This document shows, one piece after another, positions 3,625-31,800 of a DNA stretch of 34,425 nucleotides. This DNA comes from Omnitrophica bacterium RIFOXYB12_FULL_50_7 (lineage in GTDB: Bacteria; Omnitrophota; Omnitrophia; Omnitrophales; Aquincolibacteriaceae). Each line of letters starts with the position of its first letter. The first letter of the stretch is position 1. The notes under the pieces were generated by a model, which saw only the letters and a program-made list of their open reading frames with translations, was not told the DNA's origin and did not search any database. A program made the translations under genes and the position numbers. The DNA lies in assembly GCA_001804345.1 (NCBI GenBank), contig MHFU01000056.1, positions 11,034 through 45,458 on the forward strand, written 5' to 3'.

Positions 3625-3628
3625 ATTT

Positions 3629-9623: not shown

Positions 9624-9633
9624 CTTTTTTCCT

Positions 9634-11244: not shown

Positions 11245-11310
11245 AAGGCGCTTATGACAGGCGTCATAAGTGCGGGGCGGAGGGCCGACCCGGAATGAAA
11301 TGGAGGGCGC

Positions 11311-11394
11311 CGAATCCCTCCCTCTCCGTTTTACCTTTGTAAAACGACGTTGTCGTCGAGGTCTAGGGAAAACCTCGTACGACAGACGCCGCCA
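11311..11394 (+). repeat. Duplicate of the tRNA-Ser(UGA) 3' end plus ~65 nt of downstream flank
   Basis: CGAATCCCTCCCTCTCCGTTTTACCTTTGTAAAACGACG...CGTACGACAGACGCCGCCA aligns with 11086-11169. A third, degenerate copy lies at 11549-11580. Confidence 0.7.
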
Positions 11395-11714
11395 TTTTTT
11401 TCAATAAAAAATGACGGCACCGTGACGATTTAGTGAAATCGTCATGGTGGCAATAAAGGGATTCGAAGCCGACCTGAGCGCCACGGGTTCAAGCGAAGGC
11501 GGCCGGCTTCGGAGGAGGCTTGCGACAGCAGGCCGGAGGAGAAGGAAACCCTCTCTCCGTTTTATTGGTATAAAACGACGTCAAGCGTTTTGGAAAAGTC
11601 CCTCCTTTTGATCCAGAAGCCTGTATTGCTATTTCAAAAAACATGTGTTATCTTCCCGGCACCTGCGCGCTTCTGATTTTTTGCGGGAATCTCTCAAGAA
11701 GGAAAATAAACCCA

Positions 11715-12305: not shown

Positions 12306-12394
12306 GTGAGAGAAGGAATGTGAAAGAACGTTTTTTCCTGGCGGTGAGTTTTCGGCATTCCCCTCCGAAGCTGTTTTAAAAAGGTAAGATCTCT

Positions 12395-14125: not shown

Positions 14126-14474
14126 AGAGTTCAAAGAACGCAGGAAGTTTGCTCGCGCAGACGTTTATGCCGTGGCACGTTATTTTTGCTCTCTTCGCGA
14201 TAGAGAGGTGGGGCTCCAGGCCCGGATCTCCGATATTTCCGAAGGCGGGGCATCGCTTGTGACTTTTATGGAGGGAATTCCCATGGAGGCCTCAGTTAAA
14301 ATTAGCTTTGTAATCCCCGGGGAGACAGGGCCCCTTGTGGCTGTAGAGGGCAAGGTCAAGCATACCGGGATCCTCGAAAGAGATCTGTACCGGTCAGGCG
14401 TTGAATTCCTCAAGGTGAAGAAAAAAGATTTGCAAGCCATTCGCGGATACGTGACTTCGCATAAAAGGAAGTAA
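14109..14474 (+). CDS. PilZ domain protein
   Basis: RRKFAR (RxxxR) and DISEGGASL (DxSxxG) motifs. The start overlaps the cstA 3' end by 17 nt. GGGAG RBS. Confidence 0.8.
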   Translation: MTKKIKEFKERRKFARADVYAVARYFCSLRDREVGLQARISDISEGGASLVTFMEGIPMEASVKISFVIPGETGPLVAVEGKVKHTGILERDLYRSGVEFLKVKKKDLQAIRGYVTSHKRK

Positions 14475-14594
14475 AAAGCCAGAGACTTCGGACAAAAAGA
14501 CGATAAGCGAAGATTTCTCGCTGTTGCCACTGTGGCACGGACCCGAAGCTTCTTTTTTTAGTATGGGGTCTCCGGTCTCAAGTCCGCGGTCTTT

Positions 14595-14963
14595 TCAGGG
14601 CGCTCCGATCATGTCCCGTACGAACTGATCCAACAAAGTTTCCAGGTTGATCGGTTTGGTCAGATACTCTGAAGCGCCAAGTTCGACCATTTTTTTGACG
14701 GTTTCCGTGTCCCGGTGACCGGTGAGGACGATCACGGGCAGGGCGGGGAATAGTTCGTGGATGAGACGCATGACCTCAATCCCGTCCATGCCGGGCATGC
14801 CAATATCCAGGAGGACCAGCGACGGAAGATCCCTTTTGATCATGGCAAGGCCGTCGGGACCGTTCAAAGCAAAGGAAGCAGAGTAGCCCGCATCAAAGAG
14901 AAACTCTGTTACCATCTTGCAAATCTCAGGCTCGTCATCGATGATCAGGATTTTTTTTGGCAT
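14595..14963 (-). CDS. Single-domain CheY-like response regulator
   Basis: KILIIDDEP, LVLLDIGMPGMDG, VIVLTGH, YLTKP. 122 aa. Confidence 0.9.
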   Translation of the reverse strand: MPKKILIIDDEPEICKMVTEFLFDAGYSASFALNGPDGLAMIKRDLPSLVLLDIGMPGMDGIEVMRLIHELFPALPVIVLTGHRDTETVKKMVELGASEYLTKPINLETLLDQFVRDMIGAP

Positions 14964-15199
14964 CTTGTCCTCCCTCGCTATTCCCTCTTATTATAAAACA
15001 AGACCGCTTTTCTCAGGAACAATAATTTCACGGTGAAAACAAAAACCGGACGGAGGAAGGCGGATGACAAAAGACAAAGAACCAAGAGCGTGACGCTATC
15101 TGCCCTCCCCCCTCCATTATCCGGAAAGTGATTTTTTGTGTCGCCAATCCGCGAGGGGATTGGTAAGATAACCACTGTTCGAACACAACGGAGTCTACA

Positions 15200-16177
15200 A
15201 TGATCACAAGTTTTTTTTATAAAAAAGGCGGAGAAATCGAAACGAATCTTTCCCGGGCACGGCTTCTTTCCGCGTTGAGCGAAAAAGGGGGGCTTCTCTG
15301 GGTTGATCTGGAGGAACCCAGCGAATTTGAGAGCGATTCCTTAGTCGAGATCTTCAACTTTCACCCTCTGGCGGTCGAAGACTGCATGACCGACCAATCT
15401 CAACCCAAGCTCGACGACTACGACGAGTATCTTTTTATGGTCGTTCACGCGATCGCCATGCACGACAAAGGCTCGAAAAGAGAGCTTCGAACCGTAGAGC
15501 TTGATATATTTATCGGTGAGAATTTCGTCGTTACCTTCCACAAGGAGCCTCTGGCGAGCGTGACCCAGGTACGCGAGCTTGTGCAAAAAAAGACCTCAGC
15601 GTTGATGGGGAGCGGTCCTGGCCTGCTCGTGCACTCCCTTCTGGATCATTTGGTCGACCGGTACCTTCCGGTTCTGAATGAATATGACGAGAAGATAGAC
15701 TCTCTTGAAAAAGAAATGTTTCGTCACACCACGAAAGATTTTCTGAAGACGTTGCTTCAGGTCAAACAAGACGTTTTTCATCTGCGGCGGATCGTGGGGC
15801 CTCAGAGGGACACTCTTTATTCTCTGACGCGCGATTCCAGCGCTTTTATCCGGACGGAACATTTGATGTATTTTCGCGACGTCTACGATCACCTTTTCAG
15901 GATCTACGGTATGGCCGAGGCATATCACGAGAACCTGAACAACATCCTGCAGGTCTATTTTTCGTATTCCTCTTTCCGGCTCAATGAAGTCCTGAAACAT
16001 TTGACCGTTTTGGCGACTGTCACCATGCCGCCCGTCATTATCGCGAGCATTTACGGCATGAACTTCAAACATTTTCCGGAGCTGGAATGGGCGCTGGGCT
16101 ATCCGTTCGCCATCGGTCTTTGCGTGCTCTCCTCCCTTGTCACGCTTGTCTGGATGAAGTTCAAGAAATGGATCTAG
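15200..16177 (+). CDS. corA: CorA family magnesium/cobalt transporter
   Basis: 325 aa. YGMNF signature (IASIYGMNFKHFPE) followed by a final TM helix and a basic tail. Confidence 0.9.
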   Translation: MITSFFYKKGGEIETNLSRARLLSALSEKGGLLWVDLEEPSEFESDSLVEIFNFHPLAVEDCMTDQSQPKLDDYDEYLFMVVHAIAMHDKGSKRELRTVELDIFIGENFVVTFHKEPLASVTQVRELVQKKTSALMGSGPGLLVHSLLDHLVDRYLPVLNEYDEKIDSLEKEMFRHTTKDFLKTLLQVKQDVFHLRRIVGPQRDTLYSLTRDSSAFIRTEHLMYFRDVYDHLFRIYGMAEAYHENLNNILQVYFSYSSFRLNEVLKHLTVLATVTMPPVIIASIYGMNFKHFPELEWALGYPFAIGLCVLSSLVTLVWMKFKKWI

Positions 16178-16249
16178 CGACGCACAACGAGCAACGAACA
16201 ACACGCATCATGCGACGCAAAGACAAGGCGTTGCGCGTTGACCGTTGAG
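16178..16249. repeat. Heptamer-built inverted repeat (CAACG-type), no cargo
   Basis: Starts directly after the corA TAG. Left arm CGACGCACAACGAGCAACGAACAACACGC, 21-nt loop, right arm GCGTTGCGCGTTGACCGTTGAG. Confidence 0.65.
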
Positions 16250-16262
16250 TAAAAAATCCCCC

Positions 16263-17342
16263 ATGAAAGCTTTATACGGTTCAACTTCCGACGAAATAGA
16301 AACTTTTGTCATAGCCCAAGGCCTTCCCAAATACCGCGCAGCCCAGATCCTGGATTGGATCTACCAGAAGAATGTCCTCGCCTGGGACGAGATCAAGAAC
16401 CTCCCGAAAGACGCCCTCCAAAAACTTTCCGGAGAAATCCGCCTTACCGCCCTTGAACCCGGAGAGGAAAAAAAAGCGGTGGCCGGAGGGCCGACAAAGT
16501 TTCTTTTCAAAACCCCGGATGGACATTTTCTTGAAAGTGTTTTGATCTCGCAAAAGGACGCCCCCGATTCCCGGGAAGGCGAGGAGACAATTCCTCAGGG
16601 GAGGCGGGAGACCGTGTGCGTTTCAACGCAGCTGGGATGCAAGATTCAATGCGCGTTTTGCGCGAGCGGTCAGGGGAAGTTCACCCGCAACCTCACGGCC
16701 GGCGAGATCGTCGAACAGGTCGCAAGAATCAGTCGGATGACAGGAAAAAAGATCACGAATGTTGTTTTTATGGGGATGGGGGAACCGCTCGATAATTATG
16801 AGGCCACGCTCAAGGCGGTCCGTATCTTGATCGAGCCCTGGGGGTTCGCTTTCGGAGCGCGAAGAGTCACGGTCTCGACCTCCGGGATTACCCCGAAGAT
16901 CCTGGAATTTGTAAAAGCCGTGGACGGGCGCGTCCGGCTTTCCGTGTCACTCCATTCCTCGATCGACGAAGTTCGCAGCTCTCTTGTTCCGATCAATCAA
17001 CGTTACCCTCTCAAGGAGCTTGTGAGTGCTTTGAGGAGGATCAATCAGGACCTGAAGCGCGAGATCACGTTCGAATACACGCTAATCGCTGGCGTGAACG
17101 ATTCCGACGAAGAGGCTGAGGGAATTGCCATGATCGCAAAACCCCTTCGTGCCAAGATCAATGTTATTCCTTATAACCCGATCGCGGAATTCCCGCACAA
17201 AGCGCCTACACCCGAAGCAACAGAGCGTTTTTGCGACCAGCTTGAGAGGCGCGGCCTTCGCGTGACGCTCAGGCAGACGGTGGGCCGCGACATTGATGCC
17301 GCGTGCGGGCAGCTCCGGTTGGACAGAATGTCCGCCCGGTAG
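16263..17342 (+). CDS. rlmN: 23S rRNA/tRNA A2503-type C2 methyltransferase, radical SAM
   Basis: YRAAQILDWIY N-terminal motif, CVSTQLGCKIQCAFCASG cluster, GMGEPL, C-terminal DIDAACGQL. I prefer ATG 16263 over the TTG at 16245. Confidence 0.9.
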   Translation: MKALYGSTSDEIETFVIAQGLPKYRAAQILDWIYQKNVLAWDEIKNLPKDALQKLSGEIRLTALEPGEEKKAVAGGPTKFLFKTPDGHFLESVLISQKDAPDSREGEETIPQGRRETVCVSTQLGCKIQCAFCASGQGKFTRNLTAGEIVEQVARISRMTGKKITNVVFMGMGEPLDNYEATLKAVRILIEPWGFAFGARRVTVSTSGITPKILEFVKAVDGRVRLSVSLHSSIDEVRSSLVPINQRYPLKELVSALRRINQDLKREITFEYTLIAGVNDSDEEAEGIAMIAKPLRAKINVIPYNPIAEFPHKAPTPEATERFCDQLERRGLRVTLRQTVGRDIDAACGQLRLDRMSAR

Positions 17343-17373
17343 CGCAACGCGCAACGGTCAACGCTCAACGGTC
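17343..17373. repeat. Left arm of CAACG-type heptamer inverted repeat
   Basis: CGCAACG CGCAACG GTCAACG CTCAACG GTC, starting immediately after the rlmN TAG. Overlaps the stop and last two codons of the four-helix-bundle gene. Confidence 0.65.
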
Positions 17374-17895
17374 TACCTTTTTGTTTAAACTGATGACCAT
17401 CCGCGTTAAATGGTCGACCTCTTCCAGCAAAAAAGACTTGTTTTCATTGGCAAAATAATTTAACTCACTCGAAACAATGATTTGAGTCTCGAGTTCTCCC
17501 AAAGAACCCAGGGCGATATTTAAGAACTGCTGAAATTCCTTAGCGTGCCTGCGGCGATACCCTTCCGCGATGTTCGAAGGAATTGAAACAGCGGCCCGTC
17601 TCATTTGCGCTACAAGGCCATAAATCTCCTCCCTCGGAAAGGCGCTCGTTTTTTGATAGATCATTTTTACCAGAGAAATACCCTTTTGCCATATTGCAAG
17701 ATCTCGGAACGACTTTACCACTTTTTGCGACAAATGTTGTTTTTCGGCGCCGCTTTCTTTGGGAGACAGATTTTTTTGTTGGTTTTCGATGAAGCTCGTC
17801 TTTTCTTCGTTCCATCGTCGGGGCTTATCGTATGGAGAAGGGTTGTTGCGGTGAGTGTTGGGCGTTGCCCGTTGTCCTGAAGTGTTGTTTTCCAT
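17365..17895 (-). CDS. Four-helix-bundle protein (23S rRNA intervening-sequence protein / Avd-like family) with N-terminal extension
   Basis: FRDLAIWQKG...MRRAAVSIPSNIAEGYRR....F..FLNIALGSLGELETQ is the characteristic family signature. About 60 aa of low-complexity extension lies upstream. Confidence 0.85.
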   Translation of the reverse strand: MENNTSGQRATPNTHRNNPSPYDKPRRWNEEKTSFIENQQKNLSPKESGAEKQHLSQKVVKSFRDLAIWQKGISLVKMIYQKTSAFPREEIYGLVAQMRRAAVSIPSNIAEGYRRRHAKEFQQFLNIALGSLGELETQIIVSSELNYFANENKSFLLEEVDHLTRMVISLNKKVDR

Positions 17896-17912
17896 CTTTT
17901 GTTTCTCCTTTT

Positions 17913-19607
17913 TCAGTTCGTTGCGCGTTGTGCGTTGAACGTTGCGCCGTTTTCTTCATCCGAGGATTGATAAAACCATAACTTATTAAACAAGGGCCTT
18001 TTCTCATAAATCCGTTCCAGCCTTTTCGAAAAAAACCCATCCGTTATTGCGTCTAAAAGAGATGTGAGTTCGTCCATGCGCAAAAGATTTTCAAGGTGCT
18101 CCTGTTCGGAGACGGGCGGCGTGAAGACGAGGTCGATCTGAAGGCGCCGGCGCTCGTAATAGATGCGTGTGGCTTCAGAGAGGAGGTCATTGCGGAGCTC
18201 CACCATGAGTTTCTCGCGTGAGTCGATCGAGGTTTGATCAGAACTGTAAACCATGTCGCCAAAGTCCCAGCTGACGTCCGCGTCCCAACCTTTGCCCACA
18301 TCTTCAGGTCCCGTGATGTACTTGCCGCTGTAAGTGCTGATGGAGGTGCTACGATCCAGGTTTTTACCGAACGAAAAGGTCGGCAAAAATCCTGCGAGCC
18401 TTGATTCGGCATGCCAGCGGCGGATCTTGCCGTTCGCGACATCAGCGTATTGAATGACGCATTTGTGAACTTCTCGAGCCGACGGTTCAAGCGCGAGGAG
18501 TTCTTTAAAAAGCGCGAGAGTTTCTTCGGGGGGTTGATAAAGTGTTACACTCGGGCCGGCTTCCGGCACAAACGCGTCAAGGGGGTACTGCACAAAACCC
18601 TCTTCGGTGATCGCAATCAGTTTTTCTTCGTTCAGCACGGCAATGCCTTGCGTGCGGTCTTTGGCTAATCCTTCAAAGAGACCCGTCCATTTTTGCGTAC
18701 GAGCCTCGTAAGCATAAACACCGCGAGGGGTTGCCGCATAAAGAAGCCCTTTTTTTTCTGAATAAGCGAGTTGATAAATAACAGGACTTTGCAAACCGCT
18801 TCTGGAAAGGGGTTCCCAGCGATGCCCGCCGTCGAGGCTTTGAAAGACACCGTTTGTGGTTGCAAGGAACAGTTCCTGCGGGTTGCGTTTCGAGACGAGC
18901 AGATCGTGGATCTTCAGATCAAAAGAGAGCGATTCTTCGGGGGGTTCCGAGTTCTCCTTGTCTGTGGCAGGGGTCTCCGTGCTGGTTTTTGAAAGATCGA
19001 GGACAGGATGCGCGGAACCCTCAGGCAGCGCGAAATAAAGAGTTTTTTCATCCGCCAAGAAAATCCGGTCATGGTCGAAGAGCAAAAGGGGGATGGGACC
19101 TGATGCGTGGAAGATAGCGGAGGGAGCCCAGGTACCTCCGGCGTTCTGTGTTTCCCAAAGGCCCTTTTGGGTTCCCAGGAACCAGCGGTTGGGATCTTTG
19201 GGGTGGACCGCGAAAGCGAGAGGATTTTTTTGGGTGTCTTTGTAGACCACGCGCCAGGAACGGTCTTTCAGGTTTCCCATAAAAACGCTTCGGCTCGTGA
19301 TCGCGAAAACAATGTCCGGCAGAACACCGAAAGAAAAGAGTCGCTTGATCGGCGCGGCCGCGTCGGTTTGGGACCAAAGAGGCTGCCACAAACTCCCCCT
19401 TCCGTTTTCAAAAATTTTATGTCCCGATGCGAGGAGAAATTTCGTCGGATCGAGAGGATGGATAGCGAGGCAGGTGAGGGCGCCGCCAGTCATGGACGGC
19501 TGAAGGGGCTTCTGCCATTCAGCCGGGGCCGGCATTTGAAATCCCAAGAAGCAGAGAAGCGATAGTGTGGCGCCCCAGACGATTGTTTTCTTGTTTATTT
19601 TCAACAC
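17913..19607 (-). CDS. Secreted protein with BNR/Ycf48-like beta-propeller repeats plus an unassigned C-terminal domain
   Basis: GTG start with a GGAGG RBS. Signal peptide KKTIVWGATLSLLCFLGF. Repeated G..W motifs (NAGGTWAPS, DGGHRWEPL, GRGSLWQPL). Confidence 0.55.
   Translation of the reverse strand: MLKINKKTIVWGATLSLLCFLGFQMPAPAEWQKPLQPSMTGGALTCLAIHPLDPTKFLLASGHKIFENGRGSLWQPLWSQTDAAAPIKRLFSFGVLPDIVFAITSRSVFMGNLKDRSWRVVYKDTQKNPLAFAVHPKDPNRWFLGTQKGLWETQNAGGTWAPSAIFHASGPIPLLLFDHDRIFLADEKTLYFALPEGSAHPVLDLSKTSTETPATDKENSEPPEESLSFDLKIHDLLVSKRNPQELFLATTNGVFQSLDGGHRWEPLSRSGLQSPVIYQLAYSEKKGLLYAATPRGVYAYEARTQKWTGLFEGLAKDRTQGIAVLNEEKLIAITEEGFVQYPLDAFVPEAGPSVTLYQPPEETLALFKELLALEPSAREVHKCVIQYADVANGKIRRWHAESRLAGFLPTFSFGKNLDRSTSISTYSGKYITGPEDVGKGWDADVSWDFGDMVYSSDQTSIDSREKLMVELRNDLLSEATRIYYERRRLQIDLVFTPPVSEQEHLENLLRMDELTSLLDAITDGFFSKRLERIYEKRPLFNKLWFYQSSDEENGATFNAQRATN
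17916..17949. repeat. Right arm of CAACG-type heptamer inverted repeat
   Basis: GTTCGTT GCGCGTT GTGCGTT GAACGTT GCGCCG, about 80 percent complementary to 17343-17373 unit by unit. It encodes the C-terminal tail NGATFNAQRATN of the 17913-19607 gene. Confidence 0.65.
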
Positions 19608-19893: not shown

Positions 19894-22800
19894 ATGAGGA
19901 AGCAAACGCCCAGAAACAAAAAAAGGAACCATAAAGAAAAAATGAGGGAGATTTCTAGTTTCAAGCGAACCATCAGCCTGATCATCGCTGTTTGTTTTCT
20001 GACAACGAATGCGATGGCTATGCCTGGTCAGGAAGCGTGGCTCGGGGAACGTGGAACGGGGAACGTATTCGGATCGAAAGATATTCTCTCGCTTTCTATG
20101 CCCTCGTCTCTTGGAACCGTTGTTGAAACTTATCGTGTGGAACAAAAAAACAGGCGTGGCACCCGTTTCCCGTTCACCGTTTCCCGGCACGACCCCATGG
20201 TCGTGTACATTCAAGACGCGCACGACTCCCTCGAAGCCCAGGAAAATATTGCTGGGATGGTCAAGTATCTTACGGAGCAGAAAGGCGTGCGGACAGTCTA
20301 TGAGGAAGGCTATGAAGGCCCGGTCCCCTCTGACCAACTCTTTGGAAACATCCAAGACACGACGCTTAAAGAAAAACTCTCCTATTACCTCATGGACAAA
20401 CTCCGCGTCAGCGGTGCTGAGTATGCGCACATTAACCGACTAGCGGATAGGGTACAGGGTATAGGGTATAGGAAAAACAAAAACAGTGAAGACCTATCCC
20501 TTAAACCCTATCCCCTAAACCCTGATTGGCAATTAATCGGTGCGGACTCGATCGCACTCCATCTCGAAAACATCCGGGCCTACGAACAAAGCGCCAAGAA
20601 ACGCGGGGATATTACCAAGGACATCCAGCGGATCCGCAAAGAACTTCAAAGGATCATGGACCGGAATTTTCCGAAAGAAATCAAACGGTGGATGGAGTTG
20701 CAGAGACGTTATCAGAATGGCCAATTACCGCTGATGGAATATTTACGCAGAACTTATTTGCTGTGGGAAACGGGAAACGGGAAACGGGCAACGAAAACGT
20801 TCAGCGTTCCCCGTTCCCCGTTCCCCGGGATCGGGGCCCTCTTTTCCGGCGATGAAAAAAAAATCAAACAGATCGATCTTGTGAAGCTGATGAGCGAGAT
20901 TCGCCAGCTCGAGGAAGAGGTGGTCGGAAAAGGACTTCCCGGGGATAGCGACCGGAAAACTTACGGGTATTATCAAAGCGTCCTACTTCTCGAAAAACTC
21001 AACGCGATCCAATTGAGTGCTGAGGAATATGCGGCACTCAAGGAATCACTTGAAAACCTCAAGACAGAAGATCTCGCTCAATTCATTGCCCGTGAAACGG
21101 GTCGGTCGATCGTGCTGTTCCGCTCCTGGGAAGATCTCATTACGGATTCGATCAATTTTTATGAGCTCGCGAAGAAACGTGACGAGGCTCTCGGGAAAAT
21201 TTTAGGGGATAGCGTAGAGGGTATAGGGTATAGGAAAAACAAAAACAGTGAAGATCTGCCTCCTAAACCCTATCCCCTAAACCTTAATGCTTCCATTTTG
21301 GTTTTTGGGGGTTTCCACAAAGAAGCCATCAAAAAGATCCTGAAAGAAAAAGGAATCTCGTACGTCATCCTTTCCCCATCCATTACCTCACCGAGCAAGC
21401 GGCATGAGGATTATTATCAGATGCTGATGAGCGGTGGAAAACACGCTTTCGAAACGCCTTCGGGCTTTTCGAAAAGACCACAGTCCCAATTCCAATCAAT
21501 TGAAGCGAATCGGAAATTGGGGCAGCCCCGACTACCATTCATTAAAAGAAATCAAAAGTTGGGACAGACCAGAGACTATAGACTAAAGACCAAAAGCCTC
21601 CTCTCCCCGCGGGAGAGGGAAGGGGTGAGGGGGAAAAGTCTCCAGTCTCCAGTCTCTAGTCTCCAGTCTGGCGGGAAGAGCGGTAGCGATTCACGACAAA
21701 GCATCGCCCGCGAAAGCACCTGCCCGCAGCGTGCTGTTGCAATGGATTACGCGCCCGTGATGGACCATCTCGCCGAAACCGGCGCGCCATTCCGTTCCGA
21801 AACCCGGGCGAATTTTATTTTGAAAATGGACCACGCCCTGTCGGACGAGCACCAGATTGCACCCTACAAACACCCGGGATTTGTAGGGTCAAACGAGAGC
21901 GCCCGCGCGGAGGTGCGGTCTGAAGTTCGATTGGGATTTCCGCCACTTGCAAAAAAATATCAACGATACATTGCCAAGCATGATTTAGATGCGCGGCCGG
22001 TACAAGCACAGCTGATTCATCCTGCTTTAGTCGGTCACGATATGGCCCAGAAGGACGTCATCAATCCCAATGACAAAGAACTTGCGGCGCTTGTTGCGGG
22101 TCCTAATGTTGATATTTCGAAAGTTTTACTCATGAGCAACGCGACGAAAGCTTTCTTTGTGGGGCATCGTCTGGGATTTCTTAAAGCTGATCGATTGCGG
22201 GATCGCCTCACGGCAACGGATTGGGAAAAACCTATTGAGCTGGAAGAGTATCGAGATCACAAATTCCGTACAGGCAGGGCACCGCTATACGAAGGCGTTA
22301 TTAAGGATGCTGAAACTGCCATTCTTATGGAATTACAAGCAATGCAAGTTGAGAAATCCAGCATTCAAATCTTTGATGATGCTGGAGCTAATGACGGCAA
22401 ACTCGCTGTAAGGATTCGCTTTCAATGGGCTTATCACAATCGCAAAGAGCGGGAATATGAATTTACGTTCTTTGATCATGATATTGAGCAAGGAAACTAC
22501 CCGCCGCTTTTAGAACAAGCGCTTAAAGAGAAAATAGACGTTTATCTTCAGTGGGCGCCTGGAACTCTGAGCGAAGCGTACCGCTATTTTCTGAGGCGCA
22601 TTTTGCCTGCGCTGCGGGAGGGTGGGCATATGGTTACGGATGATCGATATTACCATTCGTTTCTGAATGATGTGATTCATTACAGTATTTGTCCTTTTCT
22701 TGAGGATGATGATTCTAATTGGCAAGCGCGAGGTGTGAAAACGCAACCTTTCCAAAATGACTTTTTTATATTCGCGGCGCAAAAGGGAAACGACGGCACT

Positions 22801-25800
22801 TGGTTTGAACGCATCAGAACCATTTTAAAGTGGACCCTTTTGGAACCCTTCGCAGCGCCATTGCTTAAAGCTATTCAAGCGATTCAGGAAGCCTGGAATC
22901 AATGCTTAAGCAATTATTATCATCGGAATGCACATTCTGGTGATCCGCGCCAAAGGCAAAGAGCTCGATGGTCTCTGAAATTGCCCCTCCATTTCAACTG
23001 GATAAGACATTTTGATCTCAGTCGAAATTTTCATTTATATGGGTGGAATGTCCAAATCAGTCAAAAACAAGGGCCCAAGAGTGTGCGCTATCGTAAGCTG
23101 CCACGCGCAGGATACAAAGATCTAAAAGCGCTCAATCTTCATTTCGGAAAAAATCCTCGAAAAACTATGGAAAAAAGCACCTTGTGGGCAGGGGGCGCAG
23201 CCATTTTATTTTCTGCGGCTATGTATTTTGCAAATGCTGTTTCTGATAATGTAAGCTTTCTTTTCTGCGTGCCATTTTTATCTTCAATCGAATTTTTATT
23301 TTTAGCTCTAACATATATTTTCACGCTTCATTTTCTCCCTCAAGTTATTTATTGTTTTGATACGGAACGACGATATGACGCGTTCTCGCCCGGAACGCAC
23401 AGCCGAATTTATCATCCTGAAAACTACAACAATCTTGAATGGCTCCAACACAAATTTGGCGTGGCCCCGCAGGACCTTCGTGAGGCCTACCATGCCATGA
23501 TAGAAGATGTTTATGAGCGGTTAGTCAATCGCTCGATCACGACCGAGGTATTAACACTAGGTTTCTATGAAGATACGAAGGATTATTTGGAACAAGAAAA
23601 AAAACCTCCCTTCGCTCAAGCGGATATTGATATAGCAAGAAAGCGTTTGTCTATCTATATCAAGGAGAAAGATCCCATAAGACGCAAGCTAAGTTTTGAC
23701 CCGGATCATTTGGAGGCAATGAAAGTCATTGGCCGTAAAGAAGATGGCTCGCAAACACTAGATATTATTCCCTTTATCGCAGGGCAAACAGGAGTTCCCC
23801 TTACTCAGACGTTTAAAGAGTTGCTTCATTCAGCCGAGGCGGGGGGCATGGCTCTTCGCAGACAAGGGAAAGAAAAAATCGTTCTTCTTAAAGAGGCTGA
23901 TGATATTTCGATCTTGACCATTGATAAAAAAGGCAAAGTCTTCGTCTCGGGCGTCAGCCGTGGCGGGACTATTTTGGACTATGCTGACGACAAAGTATTT
24001 TTGGAAGAAGGTGCGAAGCCTGTATTTTGTTATCACTCACATCCATGGGCCTCTCCCTTGACTGAAGAGAGAAGTCTTCCGCAAATACTTGCTCCCAGCG
24101 ATGCTGATGAACGGGGGATCGCAAAGATATCAAAAAAATTCCATAGAGCAATCCCTGAGATTATATGGGCTTATGATAGAGAAAAACACAGGCTGGTCGG
24201 ATGGTTTTATGAGCTAACGGGCGATGATTATGAAAAATTAAACAATCCAACAGAACTTACCGTCACTTTAGCAAAACAGCAGCAATTAGATTTCCAACAA
24301 ACACAACAACCGGATAGCGTCCTCACGGGAGGGGTCAGGACGGAAGCCCGCTCGGAAACGAGGGGAGGGAGTCTAAGGGGTTTTGCCGGTGGGGATATTG
24401 AGAAGGACGCTCGTAAGTTGGCGGCGGGGGATACGGCGGCTGGCGTCAAGGATCTCGATGCCGAACACCCGGCCGTTCTTGGCGATATCCATCATAATGC
24501 CGTCGGACACCTTGCGGGCGTGTTTGATCTTGCCCGTCTGGAACTGGATGTACAACGCATCCGCTTCCCGATCGAACGATATTTTCATAAGGAATTTTTA
24601 ACGGGCGGAGAGGAAATCTTCCCAGGACGTCTCGATGTCCTTGAGAATAGAATTCAAAAGCCCTTTTCCGAGATCTTCGCCTTTGTGAAAAGGAACTACC
24701 GTCGCGCGGCCGTCGGGATGGCGAAAATAAATATGACTGCCTTTCTGGCGGAGGCGTTCAAAACCGAGGCGGGTAAGAATGCGGATGACTTCGGAAGAGC
24801 GGAGAGGAATGAGGCGGGCCATCAGTTGACTTCGATCTCCTGGAGTCCGACAAAATCCATGGGCTTGAAGGAAGACCCCTCGACTTCAAGACATAACTGG
24901 ATGGCCTCTTTCATGCGGGGGATAAGAGTGGTAAGGGATTTTGCCTGCGTGTGGCATCCCCGCAGACTGGGGCACGATCCCACAAAGACACCGTCTTCGT
25001 CTTTTTCAATGATGACCATGAAATTTTTCTTGCGCATTTTTTCACCTCTTTCTGTCCCGGATGATATCCCGTCTCTTTTAGGAAGTCAAGGTTTCGCCAT
25101 GGCAGGAGGCGTTGGTACACCGATGGTTTCTCTATTATTAGCTCGTTCGGAAGCGCGTACCGATCAACCTGTCCCCTTGATGCCTGGTACCATTTCTAAG
25201 ACCCGGCTTTCCACCCTGGACACACCGGGTGTGGACAAGGGGGAGAAGCGTTCCGAGATGCGTGTGCCGAATGTTATGGGTAAGGAGCCGAGAGAGATTG
25301 TGATCCGATGGAGCTCTGAAACGGAAAGTACAGATGAAAAAAAACAACATGTCATTGCAGAAGTATGGGATCCGGCTCTGAAAGAACAATTCGGCGTTGG
25401 AGTGTTTTATGTTGAGGACCAAAAGATCAGGATATCGGCTTATTTTCCCATCGGTAAGATAGATGATCCTTCCGGAAAATGGTTCAGAAACAGAGGGAAA
25501 GGAATCTCTTCCACTTTTTTATTTTGGTTGAGCCATTTTGCCATGGCCAATGGCATACGGGAAATCTACATCCAAAGCGACAAGGCGATTAACATTCCGC
25601 TTTTTCGGAAATATTTTGCCGGTCAGTTTTGCCGTCACCCTCATGGAATGACGGAAGCAGAGGTTTGGCAGGATATGGAAAAGGTCGAAGACCCTGCAAC
25701 CGGCGAGGGGCTTTATTCGGAAGCAGTGTTAGGTGAAATAGGAATCGCCGATCTTGCGACCATGGAGATTACGGCTTATGTACGGCTTTCACGGCTTCCG

Positions 25801-28800
25801 GAGCCGGGCGGGCAGTATCGAGTGGATGGGGTGGAGGACAATGTAGAAAGGCTCAAGCAGTACGCTCGTGAAGACGGATTGAAAGAAAGCTCGGTAGTGG
25901 TGACCTTCCCGAAAGCTTTAAGGCCTGGAGCTTGGCTGGAAATCACCGAGAGAGGCATTGTGAAAATTGAAGGAAAAACCATAGGAATTATCAAAGTCGC
26001 AGCAGGGCCGCACTTTGCCGTGAAAGGGGTGCCACGTTTTCCGGAAGAATTGCGATCACTTTCCGAGAGCTTTTACCAAAAAGAAAACCTTCTATTACCA
26101 ATCTCCCAACCAGAAGACTCTAAAGTTCGCTCCGAGGCAAGGGCGGAACTGCGTTCGAAGGATTTCGAAGAATTTATCACCGGCATCGAAAAATTTGTTA
26201 AACATAAAATTTCAAGGCCGGCCCAGCGGGTATTTTGGAAAACGATTGGCTGGATGCATCGCTACCGTTATTACATCACTCCTGCAGTCGTGGCGATAAC
26301 CGCTCTCGCTTATTACATTTTTCTAAAAGTACAAAATTTTCACGAAAAGAACATCCAAAAACCTCTTCGCATTCAAGAGCAAAAGGATGTCCCGGATTCT
26401 TTTCCATCGAGTGGTGCAACGACTACCGAAAAAAAGTCCAGCCGTTCGGAAGCAAGAAACAATATCGCGCAACCACTTTCAACCTACGCGGTTGAAAGCG
26501 GTTCCCATCCTCGCTCGGAAGAGAGGCGGGACAATATTGAAATAGAAAAACTTTTTCCCGATGATGTTGAGGAGCTTCTAAAGTTTAGAGACAAATATTT
26601 TGTTCCCAGGATTGCCTTGGGACTTGAGAAAGCCAAATGGAAGGAAGTTTTTTACAATATCGCCTATGGAGTTCACACGGATCCGACCATGATTTATCTT
26701 GCCAATGATAAAGAAAAAATTGTGGGCTACGTCACGGCGACGGATTTTTCTTCCTGGGAGAAAAGAAAGGGTGAAGGATGGGTGGGCGAGTTTGCCGTGC
26801 ATCCCGAGTATGAAGATCAAGGACTCGGAACAAACCTTTTTGAAAAGGCGCTGGATTGGCTTAAGGAAAGGGAAGGAGTTCGCGTGATTAAACTGACGGA
26901 TGCCTCCGTCCCAGTAGAGATTGACGGCCAAATGGAGAGCCGGGTTGCCAAAATAGCTCAAAAGTTTGGGTTTGAACTTCCCCCAGGGGAGATAAACGAA
27001 TGGCAATTAGATTTGGGGAAGAGTTCTCAGGTGGACGAATCCGACGAAGACCGGATTTTTTTTGGTGATTGGGGCGATGAAGACGATGATAACGATGAGC
27101 GTTCCGAATTGCGCCGGCCTGTCGGTCAGACAGGGGCCCCCTCAAAATCAGGCGAGACAGCGGTCACAGAGTTGTTTAATGGAATACCTGACAACGAGCG
27201 CAAGCTGATCGGGCCTCAGATGAGGGACGTTATTTTTGGGGACTATAGCGACTTTCAGAGGCAGCTTTTCCGTTCGCAATCCCTTCTGCATATTTATCAA
27301 GAAAACCTTGTTGATTTTTTCCGCCTCCACAAAAAAGACTTTCCCGTTTTGCATCGATATCTCCAGACAATTATCAATAACACCACATACGAAAACTGCT
27401 TACCAACCAACGGCCTCGAGCTTTTGTTTTACCGTGTGGTGCGTGCCCGCTACAGCAAAATAGAGAAGCTTACGGACGCGAGTTTAAAGGCCTTTGACGA
27501 GATTTTGCCAGAATTTGTAAAAACAGTTTCGCTGATATTAGCGAACGCCTATGCAGGTAAAATTAAAACCTCGCCCGCGTTCCGGGAAGCCCTCTTTTTG
27601 AGGGAAGAGATTTTGTACCAAACAAATCCCGAAAAAATCCGGGACATCGGCCGCAGAGTGAAAGAAATTTCAACGAGTCCCTCATGGGATGACGATGGTG
27701 AAGCAAAAAAGCGGGCGGAATTGCGGGAAGAAGATAGAGCAACGGGCACTTCACTCGCCACAACGCGTTGGACGAATCCGCCAACCCTCGAACAGATCCA
27801 GACATTGCGGCAGTTGCAGGAACAGGCGGACATGACTCAGCGGGCATTTGCGAATGCAATCAGAACGCATGAGGCGACTCTCTCTAGGATAAAAGCCGGA
27901 AAAGAATCTGCTCGTTGGGCGGCAGTGCTTATCCAGAGGGCGAAAGAGATTCTCAGGGATAAATTGCAACAGGCGCAGATGCCGGCAACACCGGAACAAA
28001 TCAGGGAATTTCGATCCATTCGGGAGCGTCTGAAGCTTTCTCCGGAGCGGTTCCGGGAGCTTCTTGGGCTTTTGGAGCCCGGAGAGCTATCTTTCAAGAG
28101 AATGGAGGAGCTATTACTAAAAGCAAGGCGGTTGGTTCCGTCTTCTGAAAAAGTTCAAGAATTAATCCGTATCCGGGAAGAAAAAGGATTGAGTCGGCAG
28201 GAGCTGGCTGCCCTGCTAAAAATCCCGGCAGAAACGCTTCTTGCCGCGGAACGAGGAGAAATGATCGCTTCCCAGGTTAAAACTTTGCTCTTGAAACTTA
28301 AACGGAAAAAAGCGTTGCCCAAAGATCCCGATCCGGAAGCGCTGGAAGCCGGAAGACGGTTAAAAACAATACGGGAACAGCATTTCCCGGGTTTGACCCA
28401 GGCGCGATTTGGAAACATGATCAATCCGGACATGAAAAATCCACAGTCCAGCATTTCTATGGCGGAGCGAGGGTTCACCAGCAAGGAAAGGTTCGAGCGG
28501 TTTATTCGATTAGCCCAAGCCCATATAACCGCTCAACCGTCGACTGAAACCGGTCGCGAAATTCGCTCACCCGACAAAGACCCGGTCCTAGGACCGGGTC
28601 TTAGGAAGGGTGAAGGCCGTTCGGAAATTCGTTTTTCAAATTTCCGCACTGAGAGTGGCAAAGCCACCGTGCGTGCGGAGGTGCGTCGCCCCAAGAAGGG
28701 GGGCGGAAAACGGAGGGCAAAAGCTGTGACGCAAAGGAAATCCCAAAAGGCACTTTCTTTATATTCTTTCTTCGGACTTCTGGCAGCCGGAGGTCTTTTT

Positions 28801-31800
28801 CTGGTTGCAGAAAGATTTTTAAACACACCCCTTGAATCTGGCGAGAAAAAACCCGCACCGATCGGTTTAGTTTCCAAAACCGAACGAGCACCGCCTCAAA
28901 GCACGGAGTCTTCATCTGCTGAAAAAGTTGATCCCGTACCTTTTTTCACTCCGGAATCCTTACGAGAAATTTCTCTTGAAAAACTTATCCCGTTGTCCGC
29001 TTTACAGAACTCCTACTTTTGGTTCGATCTTCATTCCGGGGAAAAAGCCGGTGAGCGATTAGCTTCTTTTATCGAACGGATAGCGAAAGAAAAACAAGGA
29101 GCCGATATTTTCCGTATCCGGGTCGTTCGGGAAAATGGCTTTTCTCTTTTAGAAGTTAGAAAAAGAGTCCAAGTGTTGTTTGAAAGAGGAGAGATTTCCG
29201 AGGGTGATTTTAAATGGATAATGAATCTACGCGCTGAAGATTTTAACGATGGAGGAAAGAGAAAAAAAATCGAACGAATCGTTGCCCAGTGTGTGGAACA
29301 AGCCAACGGGGAATGGCCTAGCGAATACCCCTTGGAAAACAAAACTATCTCAGGTGCTACTTTAGAATTTGACCGGGAGCTCCTTGAAAGATTAATAACG
29401 AATGAAGCGTTGGGAAAGAAAATAGTTTTTGTTAATGAAACGGTTCATCTTGAGCCGACGCTTCTCCAGATGGAATATGAACTGCTCAGAGAACAGGCCG
29501 TCAAGGCGCTACTATTCGAAGTGGACGAGAGCCAGGTCTTTGTGGCCTATTTTTCGTTGATCAAGCGATCCATGCAGGCCAAGTACGAGTCACAGGAAAT
29601 TCGGGAAATGAACTATATCCGGGAAAAAATCCTGCCGTTGTTAAAAGATCCCCGACAGGACCAGGATGTTCATGTTTTTCCAAGAGGGACGCAACATTTC
29701 TTTTTACTCGAACATCTTTTCCCTCAGTTGATCGGGGCGCTTTCTTTGCAGCAGCTCTATTTGGTGGAACATGCTTGGGAATATTCCATGGCGGATGTGG
29801 AAAGGATCGGGTTAACGCGGTGGAGAGAAAAACGGTTGGCCGAGGACTTCAGCGAATCCGAGAAAGAAACGCTTCTCAAAGATGCTCTTCATCAACTACT
29901 TCTGATGGTCATGAAGCCGCTTTTTGCCAGCCCGAAGCAGTATGATCCCGAATTGTTTTCGAAAGCGAGCAACTCAGTGCTGAGAAATTTATCAGCCGAG
30001 CAGGTAAAGGAAATTCTAGAAGAGATCCGGTTGCTGAGCCAGCAGATGAAACCTTTACCGGAACCAGAGCAATTCTTTGGTATTTTGGGGTGTGTGACAT
30101 GGGCAAGAATTCAAGATTTGTTGCCGGGTGAATATCGCGATCAATTTATAAAAGTCATCATTGACCGCGAACCGGAACGGCTGAGGATCATTAAGGACCA
30201 TAAAACGGAAGTGAAACCTATTCTTTATTCCGTCCCGCTTGTCCCGCGCTCGGAATTGCGCCTGCCCGCCCAGGAGTCAGTGGCGGGGGCTGCCATTTCG
30301 CCGAAAGCAGAAGGCGATTCGCGCCTCTCAAAAGAAATTCTTAAATATCTTTTAAATTTAGAAAATGCGGCTAAGCGTCCCAATAGCGCTATTCGTCAAA
30401 CCGCTTTTACTATGCGCAGTACGATTCTTGCCGCCTTGGCCGATCAAGGGCGCCGGCTTCCATTGAAGAACAGAGTTTTTGAAACAACCGACGATTTTAG
30501 TATCCGTAACCGCCTGGCGGATTTTGCCGCGTCCATTGATCTTGCGATCACTCTCATCGAACAAGGCCAAACCCCCGACCTTGTTTTTGTTAAAAAGAAA
30601 CTTACTGACCGTGATCCGCGTATTCGCCAAGCCGCTTTTAAGGCCTCGGTTTCTCTTGCGGCGGCCTTGTTCAAAAAAAGTAAAAAACCCAATCTTTCTT
30701 TTTTGAAAAATGCATTACTTGATACGGATCCTTATGTTCGCGCCGATGGCCTTATCGCCTTTAGCATGATTACCGCCACTCTCATTGACCAGAAAAGAAT
30801 CAAACTCCCCGATCCTTACCTGGATGCTGTCGAAGCCGCTAAAGCTGTTGCGCGCACGGTTACAAATTCCTTCACGGATTATGGGCAACCCTCCGAGCCC
30901 TCTCTCTTTGATTTAGCACTTTTCGATAAAGCGACACCCATTTCTCAAGCGATTATTATTGCCCTTGGGAACATCGCGGCCGCTTTGATCAGACATGGCA
31001 GGATTTCCAGCCTTGTTTTTTTTATAGGGAGACTTACCGACCATGATCCGCGTATTCGCCAGGCCGCTGTTACGGCTTTTGGTACTATTACCTGCGCCCG
31101 TATTGACCAGGGTAAACCTCCTCAATTTTCTTTCTTTAATACAGTTCTCAAAGATCCTGATTCGGAAGTTCGCCAAGCCGCTGTCACGGCTTTAGGCGAT
31201 GTTGACACGGCTCTCGGCAAACGAGGCCCAATCCCCAATCTATCTTCTTTTGATACAGCTTTTAATGATTCCAACTCAAGGGTTCGAACGGCGGCCGTTA
31301 CTGCTTTCGGCGCTGTTGCGGCAGCTTCGATCAAGCATCAATACCGGATCCCTGAATTGTCTCTTTTTCATAAGGCCTTTGCTGACACTAATCCTGATGT
31401 TCGCAAAGCCGCTTTCACAGCTTTCAGCACTGTCGCCATTCGCTGCATTAACCAGGGGCAGACTCTTCCTGACCTTTCTCCCTTTAATAATGTTGAAAAC
31501 GATCCAGATGAAAGCGTTTACACGACAGCTCTTATCGCTTTTGATGCCATTGCCGCCGCTTCTATTAGGCGAGGCCAAAATCCTGATCTATCTCCTCTTA
31601 ATAAAGCCCTTTCTGATTTCAGCGGAGATGTTCGGGCTACCGCCCTTATCGCCTTCGGCGCTGTCAGTGCCAGCCGTATCGATCAAGGTCAAACTCCCGA
31701 CTTGTCTCTTTTTCAAAGGAAGCCCAAAGATACCGACCCGCGTATTCAGCAAGCCCTGCTCATTGCCTTGGGTGCTGTAACAGCGGCGGAGATCCGGCAA

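What the first reader, a model, noticed from the sequence alone, without database searches (positions are those of the whole stretch)
24346..25158. hicB-hicA-DUF2283 operon embedded antisense in the giant ORF while the sense frame stays open
Three clearly recognisable minus-strand genes lie entirely inside the giant plus-strand frame: hicB (24822-25037), hicA (24598-24822) and a DUF2283 gene (24373-24588). They have their own RBS and a good TTGACT-17-TATCAT promoter at 25061-25089.

I checked codon by codon, and frame 1 has no stop anywhere across this ~800-nt block.
- hicA and the DUF2283 gene are codon-aligned with frame 1, so they must contain no TTA, CTA or TCA codons.
- hicB and the promoter region are in a different register and are also stop-free.
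- A random sequence of 265 codons would carry about 12 stops.

The block is bracketed by two copies of the ORF's recurring motif: ARSETR at 24346-24363 and ARSEAR at 25141-25158.

This looks like a toxin-antitoxin cassette captured as one module of the giant gene, with selection keeping read-through. The alternative is a bidirectionally coding segment.
Basis: partly seen in the sequence, partly recalled or inferred. Interest (0 to 1): 0.85.

Follow-up and report, generated by a model that had tools for sequence, protein, structure and literature searches.

The report
Toxin-antitoxin operon nested backwards in giant gene
A working-looking hicB-hicA toxin-antitoxin operon sits backwards inside a giant bacterial gene whose reading frame runs straight through it, and about twenty related genomes show that natural selection keeps that frame free of stop codons.

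Summary
Plus frame 1 is stop-free from 19855 to the window end (4857 codons). Inside it, on the minus strand, lie intact DUF2283, HicA and a short HicB-like gene with a sigma-70-type promoter and a Shine-Dalgarno site.

It is not a one-off. The plus-strand translation of the cassette recurs in other giant proteins.
- In every Omnitrophota-type hicBA locus recovered (17 genome-collection loci plus the window, and further metagenome loci) the antisense frame has 0 stops.
- All 56 ordinary hicBA loci from the same scan have 1-10 stops.
- Redrawing synonymous codons gives P(0 stops) of about 0.005 per locus.
- Minus-strand HicA and HicB stay conserved (57-77% and 49-72% identity). One locus has a stop inside the HicA match.
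- Synonymous sites show no extra constraint.

So the plus frame is selected only to stay open, not to encode a domain.

These HicA proteins form one cluster. The cassette is usually bracketed by the host ORF's lineage-specific "punctuation" peptide (R[SA]ExR in the window).

Best reading: a toxin-antitoxin (TA) cassette lineage adapted to live antisense in translated mosaic giant ORFs, read through as a spacer. Cleavage at the punctuation marks and a stabilising role are inferred, not shown. I found no published description.

The parts
19942..34425 (+). Giant mosaic ORF. It is stop-free from 19855. The ATG at 19942 is the start used by the public gene call. It runs off the window and is at least 6749 aa on the source contig.
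   Evidence: Stop-free span. Called as a 6749-aa gene cut by the contig end. In-frame Pfam domains: GNAT, HTH and HEAT. The N-terminal module has 34-47% identical homologues, two of them named Candidatus Omnitrophica.
24349..24363 (+). Punctuation motif copy RSETR (ARSETR from 24346), 10 nt from the DUF2283 stop codon.
   Evidence: Motif list. Enrichment is 16 observed against 0.34 in shuffles.
24373..24588 (-). DUF2283 gene (71 aa). It is codon-aligned with plus frame 1 and starts 9 nt after the hicA stop. No obvious Shine-Dalgarno site.
   Evidence: PF10049, E 3e-17, 62.8 bits against a cut-off of 23. Codon table and junction. Antisense DUF2283 also sits inside other giant ORFs (P0010, P0026, P0080; L056:8519-8734).
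24598..24822 (-). hicA toxin gene (74 aa). It is codon-aligned with plus frame 1 and has no TTA, CTA or TCA codon.
   Evidence: PF07927, E 1e-21. 1WHZ E 2e-13 with the G-x-H histidine aligned; 4C26 and 6G26 HicA. 50% identity to an annotated HicA on a Desulfosarcina plasmid. Codon counts.
24822..25037 (-). Short hicB-like antitoxin gene (71 aa, no DNA-binding domain). It overlaps hicA by 1 nt (TGATG) and is offset by one base from plus frame 1.
   Evidence: PF15919, E 5e-5, 23.8 bits, below the cut-off of 27. 2YZT/TTHA1756 E 5e-9; HicB 6G1C E 0.72. 49-72% identical orthologues lie next to hicA in all related loci.
25043..25049 (-). Shine-Dalgarno site AGAGGTG, 5 nt upstream of the hicB ATG.
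   Evidence: Sequence. An AGGAG-type site is conserved at the same place in related cassettes.
25061..25089 (-). Sigma-70-type promoter of the cassette: TTGACT, 17 nt, TATCAT.
   Evidence: Consensus scan, 10 of 12. CTTGACTT, about 17 nt, then a TAtAgTAt-like box is conserved in at least 13 of 17 related cassettes. The -35 box reads as the conserved 'SQ' in the plus frame.
25144..25158 (+). Punctuation motif copy RSEAR (ARSEAR from 25141), about 55 nt beyond the -35 box.
25249..25263 (+). A further punctuation copy, RSEMR, 35 aa downstream. Such doublets are common in this ORF. It precedes the next sense-coded module.
   Evidence: The downstream module (about nt 25231-26061) has homologues in other giant proteins (P0005, P0007, P0009, P0011, P0021).

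Best explanation
The block is a self-contained hicB-hicA(-DUF2283) toxin-antitoxin operon. It is transcribed from its own promoter on the minus strand. It is nested inside a translated, mosaic giant ORF of an Omnitrophota-type bacterium.

It belongs to a clade of hicBA cassettes that live in or directly beside such giant ORFs. Ribosomes translating the giant ORF must pass through the cassette. Any antisense stop would truncate everything downstream, so purifying selection removes them. In hicA this works through synonymous codon choice (no TTA, CTA or TCA). In hicB it works through choice of adjacent codons.

The resulting plus-strand peptide of about 260 aa is a spacer, not a domain. It is delimited on both sides by the ORF's punctuation peptide R[SA]ExR.

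Shown here:
- intact TA genes with a conserved promoter and ribosome-binding site;
- the open frame;
- clade-wide stop avoidance;
- no amino-acid-level constraint on the plus frame;
- bracketing by punctuation motifs.

Inferred:
- the giant ORF really is translated end to end;
- the punctuation marks are processing or linker sites that let the spacer be tolerated or excised;
- the TA cassette acts as an addiction or stabilising (or defence) module for a recombination-prone modular locus, as TA cassettes do in chromosomal integrons.
For: - Genes and signals. Open frame.
- Recurrence: the plus-strand translation of hicA and hicB hits 35-49% identical segments in proteins of 2744-5930 aa. A weaker match to the antisense DUF2283 stretch lies in a 6806-aa protein.
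- In 14 genome-collection loci the matched frame is open for 737 to more than 6500 codons.
- Minus-strand HicA (57-77% identity) and HicB (49-72%) are full length there. The L040 hicA match carries one internal stop.
- Stop counts in the hicA-aligned plus frame: 0 in 18 of 18 Omnitrophota-type loci, against 1-10 in 56 of 56 ordinary loci. The pattern repeats in metagenomes: 18 loci with 0 stops and 52 with 1-7.
- Resampling with each locus's own codon usage gives 1-7 expected stops and a geometric mean P(0) of 0.005.
- Synonymous-codon identity equals the codon-usage expectation (ratio 1.02-1.05). The loci are therefore independent at these sites, and the plus frame is not selected for its sequence.
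- The embedded-type HicA proteins form one cluster.
- Promoter and Shine-Dalgarno site are conserved.
- Punctuation motifs bracket the cassette in most loci and are strongly enriched in each giant ORF.
- Other TA-like genes are nested antisense in related giant ORFs: DUF5615, DUF4258, DUF2283, a second hicBA, and retropepsin-like proteases.
- A tRNA-Ser(TGA) gene is present, so TCA is not avoided for lack of a decoder.
- TA cassettes with their own promoters that maintain cassette arrays are known from chromosomal integrons (PMC13108822).
Against: - There is no direct evidence of translation or transcription on either strand.
- Several clade members lie just outside a giant ORF: at its 3' end in L009, L010 and L015, and at the extreme 5' end in L093 and P0023. 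They still have an open antisense frame. Openness is therefore a property of the cassette lineage and need not reflect current read-through at every site.
- The role of the punctuation marks as cleavage sites is untested. The N-terminal conserved module gave no protease-like fold match.
- In some lineages the punctuation is nearly invariant at the DNA level (L056, L062). This leaves room for a nucleic-acid role.
- HicB falls below the Pfam cut-off and lacks a DNA-binding domain.
- The stabilising role of the TA cassette is by analogy only.
Confidence: 0.7

Rival explanations
1. Chance or neutral insertion. An ordinary TA cassette landed in the giant gene and happened to contain no antisense stops. 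No selection is involved.
For: For this window alone the probability is not astronomically small. P(0) is about 0.02 for the three coding regions and about 0.25 for the leader. The cassette is more GC-rich (0.52-0.57) than its flanks (0.42-0.46), which lowers stop density.
Against: All 18 related loci are stop-free, against none of 56 ordinary loci. Per-locus P(0) has a geometric mean of 0.005, and synonymous sites are saturated.
Confidence: 0.02
2. True bidirectional coding. The plus-strand peptide across the cassette is itself a functional domain or protein, overprinted on hicBA.
For: The plus-frame segment aligns across many proteins with some invariant columns. Stand-alone clade members keep an ORF that just spans the cassette. 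L015 has AAGGAGAAAGATG at its start.
Against: Plus-frame identity (36-49%) is far below HicA and HicB identity. I attribute the invariant plus-frame columns to conserved HicA and HicB residues on the other strand, but did not test this. Synonymous sites of hicA and hicB show no excess conservation over codon usage, exactly as in ordinary loci. Pfam and NCBIfam report no domain over this stretch of the giant ORF.
Confidence: 0.08
3. The giant ORF is not one translation unit here. Two plus-strand genes flank a normal convergent TA locus. The open frame is inherited from a cassette lineage that is selected for openness elsewhere, because it moves between sites.
For: Relatives exist with exactly this unfused layout (L009, L010, L015; L015's giant ORF ends with the family's typical ..AA terminus). 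Cassettes at the ends of ORFs are still open.
Against: In the window there is no stop between 19855 and 34425. No sense-strand start signal was looked for after the cassette. The next module follows a punctuation motif, as all the others do. In 14 genome loci plus further metagenome loci the frame is continuous for thousands of codons on both sides.
Confidence: 0.12
4. Assembly artefact. The contig is chimeric at the cassette borders.
For: Metagenome-derived sequence. The cassette GC differs from its flanks.
Against: Two ENA assemblies (L001, L002) carry the same junctions at 100% DNA identity. A JGI contig (L090) encodes an identical cassette at the protein level. The same architecture appears in many unrelated MAGs.
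Confidence: 0.01

Closest known systems
HicAB type II toxin-antitoxin systems (Pfam PF07927 HicA_toxin; PF15919 HicB-like antitoxin; solved examples 1WHZ, 4C26, 6G26, 2YZT)
   Same: A small HicA with the conserved G-x-H histidine. An adjacent, translationally coupled HicB-like partner. Its own sigma-70-type promoter. An operon of about 0.45 kb.
   Different: HicB is the short single-domain form without an RHH or HTH DNA-binding domain. A DUF2283 gene is appended. The whole operon lies antisense inside another ORF, and its codon choice is constrained by that ORF.
TA cassettes in sedentary chromosomal integrons (for example the Vibrio cholerae superintegron; PMC13108822)
   Same: TA operons with their own promoters are interspersed as units in a long modular array. 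There they are held to maintain the array. Here too the unit is delimited by a recurring boundary element.
   Different: No integrase or attC-like sites were found here. The array is a single open reading frame. The boundary element is a short peptide-coding motif. The cassette must stay stop-free on its antisense strand.
Giant genes of Omnitrophota (bioRxiv 10.1101/2023.11.21.568195; 10.64898/2026.06.07.730766)
   Same: A multi-thousand-codon ORF in an Omnitrophota-type genome, with heterogeneous domains, mostly unannotated sequence and some transmembrane segments. Post-translational cleavage into several products has been proposed for such proteins.
   Different: Term searches of those papers for antisense genes, opposite-strand genes and motifs found no mention of nested genes or boundary motifs. 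The window's ORF (at least 6749 aa) has no SecA or peptidase domain detected in the part seen.
Antisense overlapping (nested) genes and 'shadow' ORFs in prokaryotes
   Same: Two reading frames on opposite strands share the same DNA. The codon-aligned antisense frame is the one that is cheapest to keep open.
   Different: Usually the long antisense ORF is a statistical by-product. Here the open antisense frame is demonstrably selected across a clade, but only for the absence of stops.
Viral polyproteins with protease cleavage sites
   Same: One long ORF encodes unrelated functional units separated by a short recurring peptide motif.
   Different: No protease or cleavage has been shown. The host is cellular. 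The motif differs between lineages: R[SA]ExR, GARLA, ASPLA and SSSP-type.

Membership tests
HicA toxin (PF07927) | Profile match above the curated cut-off | tested here: met
   76.9 bits against a cut-off of 27, E 1e-21.
HicA toxin (PF07927) | Sequence similarity to solved HicA-family proteins, with the conserved histidine of the G-x-H motif (catalytic in characterised HicA; own knowledge) | tested here: met
   1WHZ E 2e-13, with query KGSHIYF aligned to KGGHRLY. 4C26 and 6G26 HicA at E 6e-4 to 8e-4.
HicA toxin (PF07927) | Adjacent cognate antitoxin gene in one operon | tested here: met
   hicB overlaps hicA by 1 nt, and one promoter lies upstream. The linkage is conserved in all related loci.
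HicA toxin (PF07927) | mRNA-cleaving toxicity neutralised by HicB | not testable with these tools
   Needs expression and rescue assays.
HicB antitoxin (PF15919) | Profile match above the curated cut-off | tested here: inconclusive
   23.8 bits against a cut-off of 27, E 5e-5. 2YZT/TTHA1756 (short HicB-like protein) E 5e-9. HicB 6G1C only E 0.72.
HicB antitoxin (PF15919) | C-terminal DNA-binding domain (RHH or HTH) for autoregulation, as in canonical HicB (own knowledge) | tested here: not met
   The protein is 71 aa, and only profile positions 1-47 of 123 are matched. It is the short single-domain form.
DUF2283 (PF10049) | Profile match above the curated cut-off | tested here: met
   62.8 bits against a cut-off of 23, covering profile positions 1-49 of 49.
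Omnitrophota giant genes | A multi-thousand-codon ORF in an Omnitrophota genome | tested here: met
   4857 stop-free codons in the window and at least 6749 aa on the contig. N-terminal module homologues are named Candidatus Omnitrophica. Related loci come from Omnitrophota MAGs. The window's own taxonomy is inferred, not read from a record.
Omnitrophota giant genes | Numerous transmembrane regions, divergent SecA helicase domains and peptidase domains (as described in 10.1101/2023.11.21.568195) | tested here: not met
   In the 4857 aa seen there are only two strongly hydrophobic 19-mers and Pfam hits to GNAT, HTH and HEAT only. The remaining 1900 aa or more lie outside the window.
Integron gene cassette | attC recombination site at the cassette border and an integron integrase nearby | tested here: not met
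   No convincing inverted repeats at the borders. No integrase among the window genes.
Polyprotein | Recurring short motif at the boundaries of unrelated units | tested here: met
   R[SA]ExR 16 times against 0.34 expected. Analogous motifs in related giant ORFs, for example 19 against 0.05.
Polyprotein | Proteolytic cleavage at that motif by a dedicated protease | not testable with these tools
   No protease was identified. The N-terminal module model (pLDDT 76) has no significant PDB match.
Functional antisense overlapping gene pair | Purifying selection on the amino-acid sequence of both frames | tested here: not met
   Synonymous-codon identity in hicA and hicB equals the codon-usage expectation (ratio 1.02-1.05), as in ordinary loci. 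Only stop avoidance is selected.

The most novel reading that the evidence does not exclude
Giant ORFs of this Omnitrophota group are in-frame cassette arrays, a protein-coding analogue of an integron. Heterogeneous modules are delimited by a lineage-specific punctuation element that serves both as a processing site in the polyprotein and as a recombination or shuffling boundary. A dedicated lineage of stop-free antisense TA cassettes (hicBA, DUF4258/DUF2283, DUF5615) moves between punctuation sites and stabilises the array. The stop-avoidance signature would then be the first genetic proof that these giant ORFs are translated end to end, and the punctuation motifs would give the long-sought cleavage map.
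Probability: 0.3. Interest if true: 0.92.

Novelty: new variant of a known kind. Interest (0 to 1): 0.85.

Why it matters
1. Translation of giant ORFs. Whether giant bacterial ORFs are translated as single units is an open question, raised explicitly in 10.1101/2023.11.21.568195. Clade-wide selection against stops on the antisense strand of nested, independently functional genes is hard to explain unless ribosomes read through. This gives indirect genetic evidence and a simple test for any giant ORF.

2. Candidate cleavage map. The lineage-specific punctuation motifs that bracket the cassette are concrete candidates for the unknown cleavage or linker points of these proteins. They make proteomic tests straightforward.

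3. A natural dual-constraint experiment. The system is replicated about twenty times in nature. Three small genes keep their protein sequences while their codon choice is dictated by a gene on the other strand. This is relevant to overlapping-gene evolution and to synthetic gene entanglement.

4. TA biology. It points to an undescribed ecological niche for TA cassettes, inside giant genes of ultra-small, possibly predatory bacteria.

Tried and rejected
- Exact look-up of the HicA protein: not on record. I take this to mean that gene callers keep the giant ORF instead.
- Plasmid DNA search with the cassette: no match.
- Word-indexed protein search with giant-ORF aa 1200-2100: no hit. The exhaustive search was needed. 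The profile A1 in the indexed database found only 2 proteins.
- Transposon-like ends: no convincing terminal repeats or target duplication. The 16-nt, 88% inverted pair 24169-24184 / 25127-25142 and the 12-nt direct family at the motifs were judged chance-level or motif-derived.
- Integron model: no attC or integrase.
- N-terminal conserved module as the processing protease: the AF2 model (pLDDT 76) has no significant PDB match. The best relevant hit was ChaN at E 2.1. Pfam at E up to 1 gave nothing.
- tRNA explanation for codon avoidance: rejected, because tRNA-Ser(TGA) is present and the other window genes use TTA, CTA and TCA.
- RNA elements in the cassette: none in Rfam.
- Idea that punctuation motifs of different lineages are one DNA motif read on opposite strands (ASPL versus ERGS, GARLA versus SEARA): noticed, not tested properly, left open (note, DNA).
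- Other minus-strand ORFs of 80 aa or more inside the window's giant ORF looked like by-products by eye. They were not scanned against Pfam.
- Literature searches found no report of TA genes nested antisense in giant ORFs.
Full report
**1. What is in the window**

Positions 1-19600 carry ordinary bacterial genes: SerRS, CofD-like, TrkA, radical SAM, CstA, CorA, RlmN, a 23S-IVS protein and four tRNAs.

From 19855 to the window end, plus frame 1 has no stop for 4857 codons. Public gene calls on the same contig start at the ATG at 19942. They give a product of at least 6749 aa, cut by the contig end.

The frame is genuinely coding in many places. It carries in-frame GNAT, HTH and HEAT domains, and codon statistics favour frame 1 almost throughout. 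Its N-terminal module has 34-47% identical homologues, two of them labelled Candidatus Omnitrophica.

**2. The cassette**

Three genes lie on the minus strand inside this frame:
- DUF2283 at 24373-24588 (E 3e-17);
- HicA at 24598-24822 (E 1e-21);
- a short HicB-like gene at 24822-25037 (E 5e-5, just under the Pfam cut-off).

HicA matches solved HicA-family proteins with the conserved histidine aligned (1WHZ E 2e-13). HicB matches the 67-aa HicB-like TTHA1756 (E 5e-9).

hicB and hicA overlap by one base (TGATG). DUF2283 starts 9 nt after the hicA stop. An AGAGGTG site lies 5 nt before the hicB ATG. A TTGACT-17-TATCAT promoter lies at 25089-25061.

hicA and DUF2283 are codon-aligned with plus frame 1 and use no TTA, CTA or TCA codon. 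hicB is offset. The block is GC-richer (0.52-0.57) than its flanks (0.42-0.46).

The block is bracketed by RSETR (24349) and RSEAR (25144). R[SA]ExR occurs 16 times in the giant ORF against 0.34 in shuffles. It occurs 0 times in the other window genes. Its codons vary synonymously.

The cassette is 100% identical in the two ENA assemblies L001 and L002. A JGI contig (L090) encodes the same cassette.

**3. Is the open frame more than chance?**

From the window alone the case is only moderate. Keeping the three protein sequences and redrawing synonymous codons from host usage gives about 3.6 expected stops and P(0) of about 0.02. With the giant ORF's own usage, P(0) is 0.009 for hicA plus hicB. 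The leader has P(0) of about 0.25.

The comparative data settle it.

**4. The pattern recurs**

An exhaustive search with giant-ORF residues 900-2099 gave 86 hits. Most of them matched the plus-strand translation of hicA and hicB at 35-49% identity. The hits include proteins of 2744, 3117, 4717, 4752, 4999, 5115 and 5930 aa. Others match the antisense DUF2283 stretch, including a weaker match in a 6806-aa protein.

A DNA scan of one genome per species with the alignment of these segments (A1) returned 80 loci.
- In 14 loci the matched frame is open for 737 to more than 6500 codons, often limited by contig ends. These loci are labelled Omnitrophota, 'uncultured Planctomycetia' or 'uncultured bacterium', and one is labelled Elusimicrobia.
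- In about 60 Acidobacteriota and other loci the frame is broken inside the match.

In all 17 Omnitrophota-type loci the minus strand carries full-length HicA (57-77% identical to the window's) and HicB (49-72%). One has a stop inside the HicA match.

The frame codon-aligned with hicA has 0 stops across hicA plus hicB in 18 of 18 such loci (17 plus the window; GC 0.36-0.52). The other two plus frames have 5-16 stops. In 56 of 56 ordinary loci (GC 0.34-0.60) the same frame has 1-10 stops.

Resampling synonymous codons with each locus's own usage predicts 1-7 stops. P(0) ranges from 0.0003 to 0.33, with a geometric mean of 0.005.

The metagenome scan gives the same two classes: 18 loci with 0 stops and 52 with 1-7. 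It adds new giant examples L091, L093, L100, L108 and L151.

**5. What is selected on the plus strand?**

Only openness. At residues conserved between HicA (or HicB) orthologues, the fraction of identical codons equals the codon-usage expectation. The ratio is 1.02-1.05 in the embedded clade and 1.02-1.07 in ordinary loci.

Synonymous sites are therefore saturated, and the loci are effectively independent. The plus-frame amino-acid sequence adds no constraint. Plus-frame identity (36-49%) is well below that of HicA and HicB. This disfavours a functional bidirectionally coded domain. It favours a read-through spacer.

**6. A dedicated cassette lineage**

The embedded-type HicA proteins form one cluster, with mean identity 68% (range 53-81%). 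Identity to other HicAs averages 51%.

Their promoter (CTTGACTT, about 17 nt, then a TAtAgTAt-like box) and AGGAG site are conserved in at least 13 of 17 loci. The -35 box appears as a conserved 'SQ' in the plus frame.

Positions within the giant ORFs and the neighbouring modules differ between loci. Homologues of the window's downstream module occur in other giant proteins without the cassette.

In L009, L010 and L015 the cassette lies just 3' of the natural end of a giant ORF. L015's giant ORF ends in the family-typical ..AA. In L093 and P0023 the cassette lies at the extreme 5' end. In each of these the antisense frame is still open over exactly the cassette. This suggests mobility or recent breaks, and it remains unexplained.

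**7. Punctuation**

Related giant ORFs each have their own strongly enriched short motif:
- R[SA]ExR (P0014, P0035, P0080, P0026);
- GARL[A] (P0015, 19 observed against 0.05 expected);
- [AS]SPLA (P0048, 19 against 0.05);
- SSSP-type (P0021, P0023);
- R[AS]SASG (P0003).

The antisense cassette is bracketed by that motif on both sides in most cases.

The DNA of the motif varies synonymously in the window and in L019. It is nearly invariant in L056 and L062.

A peptide role as a cleavage or linker site is my preferred reading. Post-translational cleavage of Omnitrophota giant proteins has been proposed, with the cleavage points unknown (10.1101/2023.11.21.568195). No protease was identified here.

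**8. Other nested genes**

Related giant ORFs also read through other minus-strand genes:
- DUF5615/Mut7-C (L007:3233-3589, E 5e-18);
- DUF4258 (L056:10994-11305, E 3e-24);
- DUF2283 (L056:8519-8734);
- second, divergent hicBA cassettes (L007 and L014);
- retropepsin-like aspartyl proteases (L007:4331-4843, E 7e-14; L017:4388-4786, E 3e-6).

**9. Mechanism and known systems**

Shown: a self-contained TA operon, a continuous giant frame, and clade-wide selection against antisense stops.

Inferred:
- ribosomes translate the giant ORF through the cassette;
- the roughly 260-aa product is a spacer, tolerated or excised because it lies between punctuation marks;
- the TA operon benefits itself or the locus as an addiction or stabilising (or defence) module.

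The last point is by analogy with TA cassettes that carry their own promoters and maintain chromosomal integron arrays (PMC13108822). Membership of the integron family is not met, because there is no attC site or integrase.

HicA membership is met. HicB is the short form. DUF2283 membership is met.

**10. Novelty**

Term searches of the two Omnitrophota giant-gene papers, and literature searches, found no mention of antisense-nested TA genes, stop avoidance or boundary motifs.

I rate this a new variant of known kinds (a nested antisense gene pair, a TA cassette in a modular array, a giant gene). Interest is high because it bears directly on whether giant ORFs are translated whole and on where they might be cut.

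Noticed in passing
window 21793-34302 (16 sites). Also P0014, P0015, P0035, P0048, P0080 and loci L019, L056, L062: The giant ORF is punctuated by a short motif, R[SA]ExR, often in doublets and lying between recognisable modules. Related giant ORFs use other lineage-specific motifs (GARLA, ASPLA, SSSP-type, R[AS]SASG). These are candidate cleavage or linker sites, or module boundaries. The motif is nearly invariant at the DNA level in L056 and L062.
   Followed up: partly
L007:3233-3589, L007:4331-4843, L017:4388-4786, L056:10994-11305, L056:8519-8734, L007:9324-9760 (all minus strand): Other recognisable genes are nested antisense in related giant ORFs: a DUF5615/Mut7-C-type gene, DUF4258, DUF2283, a second hicBA, and two retropepsin-like aspartyl proteases.
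   Followed up: partly
L009:9816-10252, L010:9995-10431, L015:10019-10449, L093:132-562: Cassettes of the same clade lie just outside a giant ORF, at its 3' or 5' end. Their antisense frame is still open over exactly the cassette. L015 has AAGGAGAAAGATG at the start of that frame.
   Followed up: partly
window 20441-20521 and 21203-21283: An 81-nt direct repeat (90% identity) lies inside the first part of the giant ORF. It encodes GIGYRKNKNSEDL..KPYPLN twice.
   Followed up: no
window 20110-21540; L087:10001-11296: The conserved N-terminal module of the giant ORF (signal peptide, then ..YIQDAHDSLEAQ..) also exists as a stand-alone 431-aa gene in another genome. The AF2 model has pLDDT 76 and no significant PDB fold match.
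   Followed up: partly
C-termini of P0001, P0003, P0009, P0014, P0015, P0026, P0035 and L015:1-9916: Complete giant proteins of this family end in ..AA. In several, a punctuation motif lies 8-10 residues before the end (for example RSEIRTAQAVASAA, GARMAAQAA).
   Followed up: no
P0048 / L056, about nt 7400-12700: Repeated linkers of about 55 aa between ASPLA marks (FGSPISQFASS..RPTGQSFDRLRTLRRRTLSESEVPANRPTNN) look like a translated DNA repeat element absorbed into the ORF.
   Followed up: no
window 1745-1833, 2261-2353, 3550-3625, 11016-11105: Four tRNA genes: Ser-GGA, Ser-GCT, Arg-ACG and Ser-TGA. Three serine tRNAs lie close to the seryl-tRNA synthetase gene.
   Followed up: no
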